64,000 nucleotides of DNA, taken from sequence record NC_052653.1; one strand, 5' to 3'. Source of the stretch: Escherichia phage vB_vPM_PD06. Below the pieces are notes generated by a model, which saw only the letters and a list, made by a program, of their open reading frames with translations, did no database searches and was not told the origin of the DNA. Made by a program: the position numbers and the translations under genes. Shown one piece after another: positions 42,133 through 52,171 of the stretch (positions are counted from its first letter, which is position 1; each line of letters opens with the position of its first letter).

Positions 42133-42564
42133 ATGTTACCAGTACCTGTAATCTTTGTAGAAAAAGCCTACTACTACTCTTTAGAACAAAACTGTAAAAG
42201 GGCTAAAAATTTTATTGAAAGTTTAGCAGAACAGCGTTACACTGTATCTAAAAAGGGATGGTTCAGAACTTCAAAATATCTAGTCAACCCTTTCGGAGAA
42301 GTTCGTGTGTTGTACGGCAACACAGAAAATATCTTAGAAAGAATGTTAGAACTAGATAGGATCTCCTCCTGTGATTATCAACTGTTGAAATTTTACGATG
42401 TGTCAGAAAGCGTTAAAAACTTTCTTGACGACTTATGTAAACGAAAAACAGAAGAAGATACAATACCAGTATCTATGGAAGAATTAACGTTCTTAAGAGA
42501 TATTATGGTTTTTGAAGAAAACCCTGAAATCACAAAAGAGGAGATTTTAAGTAGTGGCAAATAA
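42133..42564 (+). CDS. Hypothetical protein
   Basis: 143-aa ORF. Confidence 0.5.
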   Translation: MLPVPVIFVEKAYYYSLEQNCKRAKNFIESLAEQRYTVSKKGWFRTSKYLVNPFGEVRVLYGNTENILERMLELDRISSCDYQLLKFYDVSESVKNFLDDLCKRKTEEDTIPVSMEELTFLRDIMVFEENPEITKEEILSSGK

Positions 42565-43063
42565 GTATGATCGTCCACCAACTGATTACTATCCTACTCC
42601 ACAAAAATGTATAAATGCATTATTTAGTGTAATAGATTTTAATAACCTTAAAGAAGAAGGTTTTATTTTTGCAGAACCGTGTAAAGGCGCTGCTGCTGCA
42701 ATTTATCAACACTTTCCAGAAGGATCAGAATATTGTGAGTTAGAAGAAGGGAAGGATTATTTTAACCACGAATGGCATACTAAGCCGGATATTATAATCA
42801 CAAATCCACCATTCAGACTTGCACTTGAGTTCTTGCAAAAGAGCTTAAAAGAAGCAGACGTTTGCATATACTTGTTGCGTCTTGGGTTCCTAGAGTCTAT
42901 TAAACGAAGGGAATTCCATAAACAGAATCCACCAACAAATTTGATTGTTCTTTCTGAACGACCATCTTTTGTTGCAGGTGGTACTGATAAGACAGCATAT
43001 GCTTGGTACGTCTACGACCCAAAAAACAGGCTGGGTTTAACTCAACCTTTCTATTTTGTTTAA
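42554..43063 (+). CDS. Minimal N6-adenine methyltransferase-like protein
   Basis: Motif order YYPTP, FAEPCKGAAAA, IIITNPPF; only 169 aa so no target-recognition domain. Confidence 0.45.
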   Translation: MANKYDRPPTDYYPTPQKCINALFSVIDFNNLKEEGFIFAEPCKGAAAAIYQHFPEGSEYCELEEGKDYFNHEWHTKPDIIITNPPFRLALEFLQKSLKEADVCIYLLRLGFLESIKRREFHKQNPPTNLIVLSERPSFVAGGTDKTAYAWYVYDPKNRLGLTQPFYFV

Positions 43064-47763: not shown

Positions 47764-47767
47764 TATA

Positions 47768-47790
47768 AACCCGCTTCGGCGGGTTTTTTG
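47768..47790 (+). terminator. Rho-independent terminator
   Basis: AAACCCGC-TTCG-GCGGGTTT followed by TTTTG. Confidence 0.8.
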
Positions 47791-47846
47791 TTGACAACAC
47801 CAGTTTTTTTCGAATAAACTACACAAAAACAGAAGAGGAGATTAGC

Positions 47847-48260
47847 ATGTATTATAGTGACTATTTTGTAAACCCAACAAAAGAACAACTTCAATCAGCA
47901 GTGGATAAGATGCAGATTGTAGTTAAAGAATGTGAGAAAATAAAAAAACAACTACAAGAAGAGACTGTTGTTGTTAGTAAATGGTTTGGTCTTAGAAAGA
48001 AGGTTGTTAGTAAACACAATATCATCCTGGAAAAAGCAAAAACGACAGGAACTAGTTACGCCTTACAAGGTTGGTTGCTAAATTACATTGATATAGAACA
48101 ACATTCTCTTCTGCACTGTTGGCTTCACAGTCCTAGTATTGAGGATCTCTTGTTCTGGTTATCGTGTGAATCTGTACTTTTAAATGAAAATGAGGCTTAC
48201 CGTTTAAACTTCTGCCTCAAGGCAGAATTACCAGCTAGTGTTAAGGAGAAGAAGCAATAA
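47847..48260 (+). CDS. Hypothetical protein
   Basis: 137-aa ORF with GGAG upstream. Confidence 0.45.
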   Translation: MYYSDYFVNPTKEQLQSAVDKMQIVVKECEKIKKQLQEETVVVSKWFGLRKKVVSKHNIILEKAKTTGTSYALQGWLLNYIDIEQHSLLHCWLHSPSIEDLLFWLSCESVLLNENEAYRLNFCLKAELPASVKEKKQ

Positions 48261-49249
48261 TGAAAGTTTTAAGTCTTTTTGATGGTATGTCAGGAGGAAT
48301 GCTTGCGCTAAAAAGTGCAGGTATTGAAGTAGATACATATTATGCTTCAGAATTAGACAAATTCGCCATAGCTGAAAGCCAAGCAAATTTTCCAGATATT
48401 ATTCAGTTAGGTGATGTTACAAAATGGAGAGAATGGGATATTCCGTGGGGAGAAATTGATCTTTTGTTAGGTGGTAGTCCGTGTCAAGGCTTCTCTTCTT
48501 CTGGTAAGGGTTTGAACTTTCAAGATCCGCGATCTAAACTGTTCTTTGAATATGTTGAAATTCTTGAACATATTAAAAAGTTTAACCCTAATGTTAAGTT
48601 CATGCTTGAAAACGTTAAGATGAAGGTGGAGTGGGAAAACGTGATCACAAGTTACTTAGGTGTTGATCCCGTATTCATTAACTCCGCAGATTTCACGGCA
48701 CAGAATAGACAACGTTTATACTGGTGCAATTGGGAAATAAAACCCTGGGCTATTACCAATGAAGTATTGCAAGATATTATCGAAGATGATAGTATTGTAG
48801 ACAGAGATAAGGCGTATTGCATAGATGCAAATTATGCTAAAGGTGGTAATATAGAACAGTATTTTGAAAAGAGTCGTAGACAACTAGCTTTTTATCCGGC
48901 AGCAATATATGGGCGTAGAATTAATGAAAATGGCAAACGTAGTACATCTAAAGCTGATCGTTTGGTACATTGCTTGGAAGTTCAGGACAGTGAAAAAACT
49001 CGTTGCCTCACGACTGTGCCGAAAGACGTACTATTAGCTTACATTCCACCTGGAAGATATCTGGATGCCTTTGAAAAATTGAGTGAAGGTGTGCATTATA
49101 GAAAGTTAACGGTTAAAGAGTGTTGCCGCTTACAAGGTGTTCCAGATGATTACTTTAAAGTGAGTAGTAACACACAAGCCTATAAGATGTTAGGTAATGG
49201 TTGGACTATACCTGTCATTGCACATATTCTTAAGTGTATGGAGGAATGA
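48260..49249 (+). CDS. dcm: DNA cytosine-5 methyltransferase
   Basis: Motif I LFDGMSGG, motif IV GGSPCQGFS, motif VI ENV; 329 aa. Confidence 0.8.
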   Translation: MKVLSLFDGMSGGMLALKSAGIEVDTYYASELDKFAIAESQANFPDIIQLGDVTKWREWDIPWGEIDLLLGGSPCQGFSSSGKGLNFQDPRSKLFFEYVEILEHIKKFNPNVKFMLENVKMKVEWENVITSYLGVDPVFINSADFTAQNRQRLYWCNWEIKPWAITNEVLQDIIEDDSIVDRDKAYCIDANYAKGGNIEQYFEKSRRQLAFYPAAIYGRRINENGKRSTSKADRLVHCLEVQDSEKTRCLTTVPKDVLLAYIPPGRYLDAFEKLSEGVHYRKLTVKECCRLQGVPDDYFKVSSNTQAYKMLGNGWTIPVIAHILKCMEE

Positions 49250-49372
49250 TGGAAACATTGTGGAAAGGCTGGAAGACTGCTCTGATAGCTTTTATAATTC
49301 CATTAACTTTTCTTGGTTGGTGTTTTTGGGAATTTATCTTTTGGTTAATTTCCCATATACATTGGGGGTAAT
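49247..49372 (+). CDS. Small membrane protein
   Basis: 41-aa hydrophobic ORF with GGAGGAA upstream. Confidence 0.35.
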
Positions 49373-49984
49373 ATGACTCAAAAAGTTGCATATCAAGTAG
49401 ATCGTGAAGATGGTGAAGGTAGTGTTGTAGTTTTTGATACACATGGTCTTGCAGCAAGACGCAAAGGCGCTTGTATGCTGGACATTGGTGGTGAAGATGA
49501 ATACTGCACTGTACGTAGAGTAAAAGAATTTGATCAATACGCTGAAAAAGGTTTTGTACCTGCGAAAGCACTATTAGAAGCTGGATGGTGGATACCTAGC
49601 GCACATGATTATGATATTTTGGAATCAGATACAGACGATTTTAACAGTGAGAATTTTGTTTTTTCTCTGGATGAAAAATGCGTTTGGAAAGATTGGGATG
49701 AAATGGAACGCCATGCTTATTTTATAAACGAAGCATTAGATCGTAAAACTTGGTTTGAGAATACAGTTAAAGCAGCGTATCCTCAATTTACTTTTACAGA
49801 ATTTTGGGGTGGCCCACACCATATTACTCATGTGGCATACTTCGAGTTCCCAGGCTCACGCTATAAAGGTACTGTCTATTGGGATTGGGACGAGGACAAA
49901 GAACCTTCTGCTCAAGACTTCCGTTGCTATGTTTGTCAAGGTGATCAAGAAGCCCTTGACAAGTACCTTAAAAGTCTGGTATAA
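49373..49984 (+). CDS. Hypothetical protein
   Basis: 203-aa ORF. Confidence 0.5.
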   Translation: MTQKVAYQVDREDGEGSVVVFDTHGLAARRKGACMLDIGGEDEYCTVRRVKEFDQYAEKGFVPAKALLEAGWWIPSAHDYDILESDTDDFNSENFVFSLDEKCVWKDWDEMERHAYFINEALDRKTWFENTVKAAYPQFTFTEFWGGPHHITHVAYFEFPGSRYKGTVYWDWDEDKEPSAQDFRCYVCQGDQEALDKYLKSLV

Positions 49985-50001
49985 TCCGTAAAACTTAACC
50001 A

Positions 50002-50026
50002 AAGCCCCAAGCAGGGGCTTTATTTG
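50002..50026 (+). terminator. Rho-independent terminator
   Basis: AAGCCCC-AAGC-AGGGGCTT followed by TATTTG. Confidence 0.65.
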
Positions 50027-50580: not shown

Positions 50581-51393
50581 ATGCGAAGAGTAATTTTTGT
50601 TAGTGGCGCAGGTTTAAGTGCAGACAGTGGGATTCGAACGTTCCGAACAGACACAGATAGTGGTCGTGCCTTATGGGAAGAATATGACTTAGAAGAGGTC
50701 TGCGATATTGGAGCTTTCCAAGCAGGTTATCGTGTGAGAACATCTCCAGATCTTCCAGTGGTCGGTGGTGTAGACGAGAACGGTATGGACTTATATGCCA
50801 AAACACACGAATTTTATAACAAAAGACGTGTTGAGCTTAAAGATGTACAACCTAATGCTGCACATATTCAAATAGCAAAGTGGTTTAAGGAATATCCTAA
50901 CCAAGTAGTAAACTTGACAACAAACGTCGATGATCTACTAGAGCGAGCAGGTGTGGACAGGGATTCTGTTATTCACGTGCACGGGTATCTCCCTGAAGTA
51001 GTTTACCGTATGCATCCTGGAGATTACAAAACACTGGTAGACATTGGTTACAATAGTATAAACATAGATGATTATAACTGGGTGAAGCCTAATGTTGTAT
51101 TTTTTGGTGAGGCTGCACCTTTGTATGCAGATATGGCTCACTTGTTTGATACTTTGACCATGCAAGATTTGGTTGTTGTAGTAGGATGTTCAAACCAAGT
51201 TATCAATTTTAATTGGGAATTATTCCCTGCACTTACTATGGGTACAAAAATGATTGTTGTTAACCCAGGAATTAATTACGAAGAAACTCTTCTTTACGAA
51301 GATAGAGGAGTCTTTGTTTATAGAGAAAAGGCAGCAGATGCTTTTAGCAATCCTGCTTTCATAAAAATGATAGAAGATCATTTGACTAAGTAA
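50581..51393 (+). CDS. Sir2 (sirtuin) family NAD+-dependent enzyme
   Basis: VIFVSGAGLSADSGIRTFR, TTNVDDLLERAG, HVHG, VVFFGE, VVVVGCS; no CxxC zinc module seen. Confidence 0.8.
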   Translation: MRRVIFVSGAGLSADSGIRTFRTDTDSGRALWEEYDLEEVCDIGAFQAGYRVRTSPDLPVVGGVDENGMDLYAKTHEFYNKRRVELKDVQPNAAHIQIAKWFKEYPNQVVNLTTNVDDLLERAGVDRDSVIHVHGYLPEVVYRMHPGDYKTLVDIGYNSINIDDYNWVKPNVVFFGEAAPLYADMAHLFDTLTMQDLVVVVGCSNQVINFNWELFPALTMGTKMIVVNPGINYEETLLYEDRGVFVYREKAADAFSNPAFIKMIEDHLTK

Positions 51394-52144: not shown

Positions 52145-52171
52145 TACAAGAAAACCCGCCGAAGCGGGTTT
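52145..52171 (-). terminator. Rho-independent terminator
   Basis: AAACCCGC-CGAA-GCGGGTTT hairpin with T-run following in minus sense. Confidence 0.65.

What the first reader, a model, noticed from the sequence alone, without database searches (positions are those of the whole stretch)
48260..49249. Cytosine-5 DNA methyltransferase without a partner restriction enzyme
The ORF has the canonical Dcm motifs (LFDGMSGG, PCQ, ENV) and no adjacent nuclease gene, consistent with self-protective methylation against host restriction. Target specificity cannot be read from sequence.
Basis: partly seen in the sequence, partly recalled or inferred. Interest (0 to 1): 0.45.

Follow-up and report, generated by a model that had tools for sequence, protein, structure and literature searches.

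The report
Orphan cytosine DNA methyltransferase of phi92-like phage
This gene is a real, intact, stand-alone DNA cytosine-5 methyltransferase of a well-known E. coli phage group (phi92-like), and it is ordinary: public records already annotate it, and only its DNA target sequence is still unknown.

Summary
The ORF at 48260-49249 (+, 329 aa) is real. It is a full-length C5 cytosine DNA methyltransferase (Pfam PF00145, E=1.3e-43; TIGR00675 above cut-off) with all catalytic motifs intact.

The window is a phi92-like E. coli myophage (Justusliebigvirus, about 98% identical to ESCO9, ECGD1 and BASEL Bas61). The gene is 98-99.7% identical to genes already annotated as cytosine methyltransferase, so it is already known.

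No partner nuclease was found:
- The neighbours match no nuclease or defence model.
- The 203-aa downstream protein has no nuclease fold.
- None of 80 bacterial or MAG loci with a homologous MTase carries the window's neighbours.

- The closest solved relatives are eukaryotic DNMT3A/B.
- The enzyme has a constant core and a swappable specificity cassette.
- In sister phages (phAPEC8-like) the same slot holds an unrelated-looking 227-aa mini C5-methyltransferase, so this is an in-place replacement.
- The phage genome has purged 23 of 64 palindromic hexamers, so site avoidance is a major passive anti-restriction device and the methylase is at most a supplement.

I could not determine the target sequence. 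GGCC, CCGG, CATG and GGWCC are unlikely targets. CCWGG, GCGC and GCWGC remain possible.

The parts
47767..47786 (+). Intrinsic-terminator-like hairpin (AAACCCGCTTCGGCGGGTTT followed by a T run) that closes the upstream transcription unit
   Evidence: terminator-like sites: 10 found against 3.1 expected in shuffles; sequence read
47791..47820 (+). Sigma-70-like promoter candidate (TTGACA, 18 nt, TAAACT), followed by the RBS GAGGAG and the up137 start codon. This is a weak prediction.
   Evidence: Promoter-like sites are barely above chance in this region (27 found against 21.9 expected), so this is a candidate only.
47847..48260 (+). up137: a 137-aa protein of unknown function (phrog_16551). 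Its stop codon overlaps the MTase start (TAATG). The family is found only in Stephanstirmvirinae.
   Evidence: It is 23-31% identical to its counterparts in phAPEC8-like phages. It is absent next to the same MTase in metagenomic lineage L089.
48260..49249 (+). Orphan SAM-dependent DNA cytosine-5 methyltransferase, 329 aa (equivalent to Phi92_gp043 and bas61_0190)
   Evidence: Against EmilieFrey, 28 codons differ synonymously and 4 non-synonymously.
48278..48298 (+). Motif I, FDGMSGG (residues 7-13): SAM-binding FxGxG loop
   Evidence: F7 and G9 are invariant in alignment A1
48476..48496 (+). Motif IV, SPCQGFS (residues 73-79), with the catalytic nucleophile Cys75 at 48482-48484
   Evidence: G71-S79 are invariant in A1
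48608..48616 (+). Motif VI, ENV (residues 117-119)
   Evidence: invariant in A1
48701..48715 (+). Motif VIII, QNRQR (residues 148-152)
   Evidence: Q148, R150 and R152 are invariant in A1
48788..48883 (+). Residues 177-208: a family-conserved segment (VDRDK.xCIDANYxKGGN...RRQL) that the model predicts with very low confidence. It is probably a DNA-contact loop that orders only on DNA (inference).
   Evidence: Invariant K184, C187, A190, K194, N197, Y201, K204 and R206; pLDDT below 50 over residues 177-208
48887..49093 (+). Residues 210-278: the variable part of the target-recognition domain, a small beta-sheet module and the presumed specificity cassette
   Evidence: Across the same homologs the core is 62-73% identical to the query while this region is only 10-46% identical, and it falls into at least 5 sequence classes. 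The model places beta strands at 212-221, 234-241, 258-260 and 265-267.
49100..49204 (+). Motifs IX (RKLT, residues 281-284) to X (GNGW, residues 312-315). Asn313 is the SAM-facing Asn.
   Evidence: In carboxymethyl-transferring CmoX this Asn is replaced by Arg (PMC12783734).
49249..49371 (+). dn40: a 40-aa hydrophobic ORF (METLWKGWKTALIAFIIPLTFLGWCFWEFIFWLISHIHWG). Its ATG overlaps the MTase stop codon (ATGATG).
   Evidence: annotated as bas61_0189 in EmilieFrey; no PHROG hit
49373..49984 (+). dn203: a 203-aa protein of unknown function (phrog_8514). It is not a recognisable nuclease.
50001..50021 (+). Intrinsic-terminator-like hairpin (AAAGCCCCAAGCAGGGGCTTT) that ends the four-gene unit

Best explanation
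The ORF encodes an active, stand-alone (orphan) SAM-dependent DNA cytosine-5 methyltransferase. It is a core gene of phi92-like phages (Justusliebigvirus).

Mechanism, inferred from the conserved motifs and the established chemistry of the family (M.HhaI, DNMT3A): the enzyme flips the target cytosine out of the helix, Cys75 (motif IV, PCQ) attacks C6, Glu117 (ENV) and Arg150/Arg152 (QxRxR) activate the base, and the methyl group of SAM goes to C5. SAM is held by motif I and by Asn313 of motif X.

The target sequence is read by a variable beta-sheet cassette (about residues 210-278) inserted into an otherwise constant scaffold.

The gene is transcribed with three small genes of unknown function as a compact unit bounded by two terminators.

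Most likely role (inferred, not shown): it methylates replicating phage DNA at one short motif, so that progeny resist 5mC-sensitive restriction enzymes of that specificity in the next host. This would supplement a genome that has already purged most other restriction sites.

Close relatives were isolated on E. coli K-12 MG1655 and DH5alpha. From my own knowledge, those strains are McrA+, McrBC+ and Mrr+. The methylation pattern is therefore probably one that K-12 type IV systems tolerate, for example a Y-5mC site such as CCWGG. The target remains undetermined.
For: Family membership and intact catalytic motifs.

Constraint: 28 synonymous against 4 non-synonymous codon differences versus EmilieFrey. 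The gene is at least 95% identical in 52 phage records, the same number as hold its upstream neighbour at 90% or more.

Orphan status:
- The neighbours have no Pfam, NCBIfam or PADLOC hits.
- dn203 has no nuclease fold.
- The neighbours are absent from all 80 bacterial or MAG loci that carry homologs. There the commonest neighbour is another methyltransferase, and no nuclease recurs.
- dn203 is 68% conserved beside a completely different MTase in phAPEC8.
- up137 is missing beside the same MTase in L089.
- No restriction enzyme is annotated anywhere in the 146.7-kb EmilieFrey genome.

Methyl rather than carboxymethyl transfer: Asn313 is retained.

Transcription unit.

Hosts of the relatives.
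Against: No experiment on this protein or on virion DNA was found (literature).

phi92-like phages are reported as exceptionally sensitive to the six RM systems tested in BASEL, so any protection is narrow.

The genome strongly avoids GGCC, CCGG, CATG, GGWCC and 23 palindromic hexamers. This shows that methylation is not its main anti-restriction device.

No hypermutable cytosine context, as would be expected at 5mC sites, was detectable among five genomes. That test has low power and is confounded by codon usage.

The promoter call is weak (27 sites found against 21.9 expected).
Confidence: 0.65

Rival explanations
1. The methyltransferase's main role is something other than anti-restriction. 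Options include epigenetic timing of phage gene expression, replication or packaging; methylation of host DNA to reprogram the cell; or countering or decoying another defence. Its presence could also be a liability, sensed by retron-type systems.
For: phi92-like phages remain highly RM-sensitive. The genome already avoids most restriction sites. Phage Dcm-like enzymes are known to be sensed by retron Ec86/Eco1 (bioRxiv 10.1101/2023.08.16.553469). The slot's methyltransferase has been exchanged between sister genera, which suggests selection on which methylase is carried.
Against: There is no direct evidence for any regulatory role. Orphan phage MTases of this family sit in varied contexts, often beside other MTases, as expected for anti-restriction cargo. 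A modular, swappable TRD is the signature of an arms race over specificities.
Confidence: 0.2
2. The gene is the M half of a phage-borne restriction-modification or similar toxin-like module. The nuclease would be one of the unannotated operon partners (up137, dn40 or dn203).
For: Four genes form one tight unit between two terminators, with overlapping stop and start codons. Three of them have no known function.
Confidence: 0.03
3. The enzyme installs a precursor for DNA hypermodification. Either 5mC is later oxidised and glycosylated using the phage's dTDP-rhamnose pathway and glycosyltransferases, or the enzyme transfers carboxymethyl as CmoX does.
Against: Asn313 is retained where CmoX needs Arg. 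No CmoA, TET/JBP or ligase is annotated in the genome. None was found among the ten largest hypothetical proteins. The phages are cut by EcoRI-, EcoRV- and type III-type systems, which argues against bulky global modification. The scan for TET was not exhaustive.
Confidence: 0.04
4. The protein is an inactive relic, or it methylates RNA (Dnmt2-like tRNA methylation, given the phage's tRNA cluster).
Confidence: 0.03

Closest known systems
Annotated orthologs in phi92-like phages: Phi92_gp043, EmilieFrey bas61_0190 'Dcm-like C5 cytosine methyltransferase', and the ECGD1, ESCO9 and PHB05 'cytosine methyltransferase' genes
   Same: 98-99.7% amino-acid identity, same length and same genomic position (PMC4690881). 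This is the same gene.
   Different: Nothing of substance. None of these orthologs has been characterised experimentally as far as the held literature shows.
Eukaryotic de novo methyltransferases DNMT3A/DNMT3B (catalytic domain)
   Different: There are no PWWP or ADD regulatory domains. Motif IV is PCQ rather than PCN. The TRD is a much larger beta-sheet module of about 110 residues. No DNMT3L-type partner is present. CpG specificity is not implied, and it would be hard to reconcile with growth on McrBC+ K-12 (inference).
Classical bacterial type II C5 methyltransferases (M.HhaI, M.HaeIII, M.MpeI)
   Different: No cognate restriction enzyme. The TRD does not align by sequence to any of them. 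GGCC is strongly avoided in the phage genome (O/E 0.40), which argues against HaeIII-like protection.
E. coli Dcm / M.EcoRII (CCWGG)
   Same: Same superfamily. CCWGG is one of the few G+C-rich sites the genome does not avoid (O/E 0.97). A Dcm-like pattern would be tolerated by K-12 type IV restriction (own knowledge).
Mini phage C5-methyltransferases of phrog_757 (phAPEC8 gp194). This family appears to include the Drexlerviridae 'Dcm' that triggers retron Ec86/Eco1.
   Same: They occupy exactly the same genomic slot in sister genera. Motifs I, IV and VI are in the same order; pairwise identity is 25% over 128 residues, E=0.003.
   Different: They are 227 aa long, match no Pfam model and have almost no TRD. 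They are found in 1497 phage records, against about 250 for this family. That the K42 Dcm belongs to phrog_757 is my inference from its size and host family; I did not test it.

Membership tests
C5 cytosine DNA methyltransferase superfamily (PF00145 / TIGR00675 'dcm') | Profile score above the curated cut-offs over the full length | tested here: met
   PF00145: 150.1 bits against a cut-off of 22, covering residues 1-327. TIGR00675: 140.8 bits against 100.65.
C5 cytosine DNA methyltransferase superfamily (PF00145 / TIGR00675 'dcm') | Conserved motifs in canonical order: I (FxGxG), IV (PCQ with catalytic Cys), VI (ENV), VIII (QxRxR), TRD, IX, X (GN) | tested here: met
   FDGMSGG at 7, SPCQ at 73-76, ENV at 117, QNRQR at 148, RKLT at 281, GNGW at 312. 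All are invariant in 36 homologs.
C5 cytosine DNA methyltransferase superfamily (PF00145 / TIGR00675 'dcm') | Two-domain fold: a Rossmann-like catalytic domain plus a small TRD | tested here: met
C5 cytosine DNA methyltransferase superfamily (PF00145 / TIGR00675 'dcm') | Formation of 5-methylcytosine in DNA | not testable with these tools
   Needs EM-seq, bisulfite, nanopore or LC-MS on DNA exposed to the enzyme.
E. coli Dcm subfamily (CCWGG; NCBIfam NF007772 / PRK10458) | Subfamily profile score above the cut-off | tested here: not met
   29.8 bits against a cut-off of 710; only the C-terminal residues 280-328 match.
Type II restriction-modification system | A cognate restriction endonuclease encoded next to the methyltransferase | tested here: not met
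   The neighbours have no Pfam, NCBIfam or PADLOC hits. dn203 has no nuclease fold. No partner is conserved across 80 loci or across phage lineages. up137 and dn40 were not modelled structurally.
DNMT3 family | PWWP/ADD regulatory domains, PCN motif IV, a very short TRD, and CpG specificity with oligomerisation through the RD and FF interfaces | tested here: not met
   The protein is 329 aa and consists of the catalytic domain only. Motif IV is PCQ. The TRD is about 110 residues with its own beta-sheet. The resemblance is limited to the catalytic core. Specificity and oligomerisation cannot be tested here.
CmoX DNA cytosine C5-carboxymethyltransferase | Arg in place of the motif X Asn (HhaI N304 / SpCmoX R350) to bind the Cx-SAM carboxylate, usually with phage CmoA and CmoY nearby | tested here: not met
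   Asn313 is retained and invariant. The criterion comes from PMC12783734. No CmoA or ligase is annotated in the genome.
Dnmt2 tRNA methyltransferases | Closer similarity to Dnmt2 than to DNA MTases; a Dnmt2-specific CFT motif in the TRD (own knowledge) | tested here: not met

The most novel reading that the evidence does not exclude
The locus could be a conserved 'methylase slot' of Stephanstirmvirinae. In this reading the ancestral mini-Dcm (phrog_757, the family that appears to include the retron-Eco1 trigger) was replaced in the phi92 lineage by a DNMT3-like enzyme with a swappable specificity cassette. That would be a counter-defence move: it changes the methylation pattern, and possibly evades retron-type sensing, while staying compatible with K-12 type IV restriction. 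The co-transcribed unknown genes (up137, dn40, dn203) might form a functional module with it.
Probability: 0.1. Interest if true: 0.45.

Novelty: already known. Interest (0 to 1): 0.15.

Why it matters
It matters little on its own. The gene is already annotated in dozens of phage genomes, and the concept of orphan phage methyltransferases is textbook.

It has three modest points of value:
- Phage therapy and engineering. phi92-like phages are broad-host-range candidates, and knowing which restriction systems their own methylation neutralises, or which type IV systems and retrons it provokes, would help predict host range.
- This abundant phage family (more than 8000 homolog clusters) is the closest prokaryotic-type relative of DNMT3 among solved structures. 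Its constant scaffold and exchangeable specificity cassette could be mined for new 5mC specificities.
- The comparison shows that these phages rely on extreme restriction-site avoidance. That explains the pattern of RM sensitivity seen in BASEL: EcoRI and EcoRV sites are not avoided, and those systems do restrict the phages.

Tried and rejected

2. Target from genomic context of homologs. None of the 80 bacterial or MAG loci offers a recurrent restriction enzyme of known specificity. Only 11 share the query's TRD class, mostly on short MAG contigs.

3. Target from site avoidance. I compared EmilieFrey with phAPEC8. This excludes some sites as likely targets (GGCC, CCGG, CATG, GGWCC and many hexamers are avoided). 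It leaves CCWGG, GCGC, GCWGC, ACGT, TGCA, TCGA and GATC-type sites open, so it is not decisive. GTAC is much less avoided here (O/E 0.77) than in phAPEC8 (0.35), yet GGTACC and AGTACT are absent, so this too is ambiguous.

4. Target from 5mC hypermutability. I examined transitions among five phi92-like genomes, first in all positions, then restricted to synonymous third codon positions. No motif stands out. The strongest contexts (GG[C]T, GA[C]T) look like codon-preference effects. CpG is only 1.2-1.5-fold raised, and phAPEC8 has similar CpG depletion.

5. Literature. No methylome or digestion data for phi92-like phages turned up. The phi92 genome paper is not held. A search for the motif peptides found nothing. 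The RIMS-seq2 supplement is not held.

6. Hidden nuclease. Rejected; see the rival explanations.

7. TET- or CmoA-based hypermodification. Rejected on Asn313 and the absence of partner genes. The TET scan was not exhaustive.

8. E. coli Dcm orthology. Rejected.

Full report
**Observation.** The quoted motifs are present: LFDGMSGG (residues 6-13), PCQ (74-76, Cys75 encoded at 48482-48484) and ENV (117-119). So are the remaining canonical C5-methyltransferase motifs in the right order: QNRQR at 148-152, RKLT at 281 and GNGW at 312. The match to the family is full-length and far beyond chance. PF00145 gives E=1.3e-43 over residues 1-327. TIGR00675 scores 140.8 bits against a cut-off of 100.65. 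phrog_116 gives E=3.3e-74 and PADLOC MTase_II E=1.9e-45.

**What the window is, and prior knowledge.** The region is about 98% identical at the DNA level to phi92-like E. coli myophages: ESCO9, ECGD1, BASEL Bas61 EmilieFrey and PHB05 (genus Justusliebigvirus, subfamily Stephanstirmvirinae). In those records the same gene, 98-99.7% identical at the protein level, is already annotated as 'cytosine methyltransferase', 'Dcm-like C5 cytosine methyltransferase' (bas61_0190) or Phi92_gp043 (PMC4690881). I found no experimental work on it. The BASEL paper describes phi92-like phages as 'exceptionally susceptible' to restriction-modification systems (PMC8594841).

**Anatomy of the protein.**
- An AlphaFold model built on 36 homologs has mean pLDDT 80 and pTM 0.80.
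- Next come M.MpeI (22.7), M.HhaI (22.2), Dnmt2 (21.8), M.HaeIII (21.6), the carboxymethyltransferase CmoX (21.2) and Shigella Dcm (20.7).
- The E. coli Dcm subfamily model is not met: 29.8 bits against a cut-off of 710. 'Dcm' is therefore correct only as a superfamily label.
- The motif X Asn (N313) is retained and invariant. CmoX-type enzymes, which transfer carboxymethyl, have Arg there (PMC12783734). Plain methyl transfer from SAM is therefore expected.
- More than 8000 homolog clusters exist, mostly metagenomic and about 320 aa long. Aligning the closest ones shows a constant core, 62-73% identical to the query, and a variable segment (residues 210-278) that is only 10-46% identical and falls into at least five sequence classes. 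This segment forms a small beta-sheet module in the model and is the presumed specificity cassette.
- A second segment (residues 177-208) is nearly invariant across all classes, yet the model predicts it with very low confidence. I infer that it is a DNA-contact loop that orders only on DNA.
- Against EmilieFrey the gene differs at 28 synonymous and 4 non-synonymous codons, which indicates strong purifying selection.

**Genomic context and the search for a nuclease.** The gene sits in a compact unit. A terminator-like hairpin lies at 47767-47786, followed by a sigma-70-like promoter candidate at 47791-47820. Four tightly packed ORFs follow:
- up137 (47847-48260), whose stop overlaps the MTase start;
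- the MTase;
- a 40-aa hydrophobic ORF (49249-49371), whose start overlaps the MTase stop;
- dn203 (49373-49984).

A second terminator lies at 50001-50021. Terminator-like sites are enriched in this region (10 found against 3.1 expected). Promoter-like sites are not (27 against 21.9), so the promoter is only a candidate.

The comparative evidence agrees:
- In 80 bacterial or MAG loci that encode homologs of the MTase, none carries a homolog of any window neighbour.
- The commonest neighbour in those loci is another DNA methyltransferase (9 loci), and no nuclease recurs.
- No restriction enzyme is annotated anywhere in the 146.7-kb EmilieFrey genome.

The orphan verdict is well supported. The caveat is that up137 and the 40-aa ORF were not modelled.

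**A conserved methylase slot with a swapped occupant.** tblastn finds this MTase at 95% identity or more in 52 phage records, all phi92-like. After that nothing exceeds 52% identity; the next hits are Vibrio phages, ICP1, PBECO4-like and Rak2-like jumbo phages, and Bacteroides and Cellulophaga phages.

In the sister genus Phapecoctavirus (phAPEC8, phiWec181) and in a Klebsiella Stephanstirmvirinae phage, the syntenic position lies between homologs of up137 (23-31% identical) and dn203 (68%). There it holds a different 227-aa 'DNA methyltransferase' (phAPEC8 gp194). This protein has no Pfam hit, matches phrog_757 at E=1.8e-84, and carries FDGSG, PPC and ENP motifs. It is only 25% identical to the window enzyme over motifs I-VI.

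That mini-methylase family is very common in enterobacterial phages: 1497 records, including many Drexlerviridae. By inference it includes the 236-aa 'Dcm' of a KarlJaspers-like phage. That enzyme was shown to make 5mC and to trigger retron Ec86/Eco1 (bioRxiv 10.1101/2023.08.16.553469).

A third, metagenomic lineage (L089-L091) carries the phi92-type MTase at 85% identity in the same slot, but without up137 and with other small ORFs. Its dn203 and dn181 homologs are only 52-53% identical. The methylase therefore behaves as an exchangeable cassette in a conserved position, and its immediate neighbours are not obligate partners.

**Attempts to read the target.** None succeeded.

1. TRD homology. 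The TRD does not align to any solved enzyme.
2. Context. No informative restriction enzyme lies next to homologs.
3. Site statistics. These revealed something else. The EmilieFrey genome lacks 23 of the 64 palindromic hexamers entirely, where 272 sites are expected in sum. Examples are AAGCTT (0 found, 45 expected), CTGCAG (0, 32), GGTACC (0, 22) and GGATCC (0, 20). GGWCC is also absent. GGCC, CCGG and CATG are depleted, at O/E 0.40, 0.56 and 0.56. The window shows the same pattern, with 24 hexamers absent. EcoRI and EcoRV sites are at expectation, which fits the reported sensitivity to those systems. CCWGG (O/E 0.97, 200 sites), GCGC (1.10), GCWGC (1.09) and GATC (1.03) are not avoided. The avoided sites are unlikely to be protected by this enzyme. 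The unavoided C-containing sites stay open.
4. 5mC hypermutability. I looked for cytosine contexts with excess C/T polymorphism among five phi92-like genomes, first at all positions, then only at synonymous third codon positions. No motif stood out. The strongest contexts look like codon-preference effects, and CpG is raised only 1.2-1.5-fold. Power is limited.
5. An indirect constraint. Close relatives carrying the gene were isolated on E. coli K-12 MG1655 and DH5alpha. From my own knowledge, those strains have McrA, McrBC and Mrr. The methylation pattern is probably one that these systems tolerate, such as a Y-5mC site like Dcm-type CCWGG. Dense CpG or R-5mC methylation seems unlikely unless the phage also inhibits type IV restriction. 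This is inference.

**Rivals.**
- A hidden RM module is essentially excluded by the evidence above.
- A role as the first step of hypermodification was considered, because the phage encodes a dTDP-rhamnose pathway and several glycosyltransferases (speculation in PMC7552041). Against it: Asn313 argues against carboxymethyl transfer; no CmoA, TET/JBP or ligase is annotated; the ten largest hypothetical proteins contain none; and the phages are readily restricted.
- A Dnmt2-like tRNA role is not supported, because the protein is closer to DNA enzymes.
- Inactivity is contradicted by the intact motifs and purifying selection.
- A primary role other than anti-restriction (regulation, host reprogramming, interplay with retron-type sensors) cannot be excluded. 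I give it about 0.2.

**Verdict.** The gene is already known and annotated, and it belongs to a very large, well-recognised family. Interest is low. The modest additions are four: the DNMT3-like affinity and modular specificity cassette, the in-place replacement of a mini-Dcm in a conserved slot, the four-gene transcription unit, and the extreme restriction-site avoidance of the phage genome.

Noticed in passing
Whole window; EmilieFrey genome (L086, L087, L001, L002): Restriction-site avoidance is extreme. 23 of 64 palindromic hexamers are completely absent from the 146.7-kb genome, where 272 sites are expected in sum; 24 are absent from the window, where 104 are expected. AAGCTT, CTGCAG, GGTACC, AGTACT, CAGCTG, GGATCC, CCATGG and CGATCG all have zero copies. 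GGWCC also has zero, and GGCC, CCGG and CATG are at O/E 0.40-0.56. GAATTC and GATATC are at expectation, which matches the reported EcoRI and EcoRV sensitivity. The sister phage phAPEC8 avoids a partly different set: it keeps 73 AAGCTT and its GGWCC sites but strongly avoids GTAC and CTCAG.
   Followed up: partly
L083:26117-26800 (-), phAPEC8 gp194; also L084:3874-4557 and L085:3884-4567: In other Stephanstirmvirinae the syntenic slot holds a 227-aa mini C5-methyltransferase-like protein: phrog_757, no Pfam hit, FDGSG / PPC / ENP motifs and almost no TRD. The family occurs in 1497 phage records, including many Drexlerviridae, and probably includes the retron-Ec86-triggering phage Dcm.
   Followed up: partly
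L089-L091 (metagenomic contigs, Logan SRR31913103 and SRR26640787): An uncultured Stephanstirmvirinae-like lineage carries the phi92-type MTase at 85% identity in the same slot. Its flanking dn203 and dn181 homologs are only 52-53% identical, and up137 is absent. This suggests the methylase moves as a cassette or is under unusually strong constraint.
   Followed up: partly
window 42554-43063 (+): A second small (169 aa) putative DNA methyltransferase: phrog_799, no Pfam hit, annotated 'putative N6 adenine methyltransferase' in EmilieFrey. The genome also has a Dam-like MTase outside the window (bas61_0037). GATC is not avoided in the genome.
   Followed up: no
window 49956-49985 and 50001-50021 (+): A perfect consensus sigma-70 promoter (TTGACA, 18 nt, TG-TATAAT; 12 of 12 matches) lies inside the 3' end of dn203, only about 15 nt upstream of a terminator hairpin. 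This is an odd promoter-then-terminator arrangement ahead of the dn181/Sir2 genes.
   Followed up: no
window 47767-47786 (+) and 52152-52171 (-): The identical 20-nt terminator hairpin sequence AAACCCGCTTCGGCGGGTTT occurs twice, in opposite orientations, about 4.4 kb apart.
   Followed up: no
window 49249-49371 (+): A 40-aa strongly hydrophobic, Trp-rich ORF is translationally coupled to the MTase stop codon. It is conserved and annotated in EmilieFrey (bas61_0189), and a small ORF also follows the mini-MTase in Klebsiella phage phi1_175008.
   Followed up: no
window about 37-40.5 kb (dTDP-rhamnose genes); EmilieFrey record 44.5-47.7 kb (glycosyltransferases, outside the window): A complete dTDP-L-rhamnose pathway, two 'disaccharide synthases' and two glycosyltransferases are encoded among the replication genes. 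Their substrate (DNA or a host surface glycan) is unknown. No TET/JBP or CmoA partner was found.
   Followed up: partly
window 50581-51393 (+), plus EmilieFrey record 139.3-142.0 kb: A Sir2-family protein lies next to the methylase unit. The genome also encodes nicotinamide phosphoribosyltransferase and PRPP synthetase, an NAD+ salvage set that fits known phage counter-measures to NAD+-depleting defences.
   Followed up: no
GenBank MG065639, MG065645, MG065656, MG065689 (L092): Records titled 'Campylobacter phage' (flagged UNVERIFIED, host Campylobacter jejuni) are about 98% identical to E. coli phi92-like phages over this region. The host assignment is likely wrong, or the sample was contaminated.
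   Followed up: no
EmilieFrey record 50.4-56.3 kb (L087:418-6318), outside the window: Several 'hypothetical' proteins are tellurite-resistance-type proteins (TerF-like vWA, TelA, TerC) that the BASEL record does not annotate.
   Followed up: no
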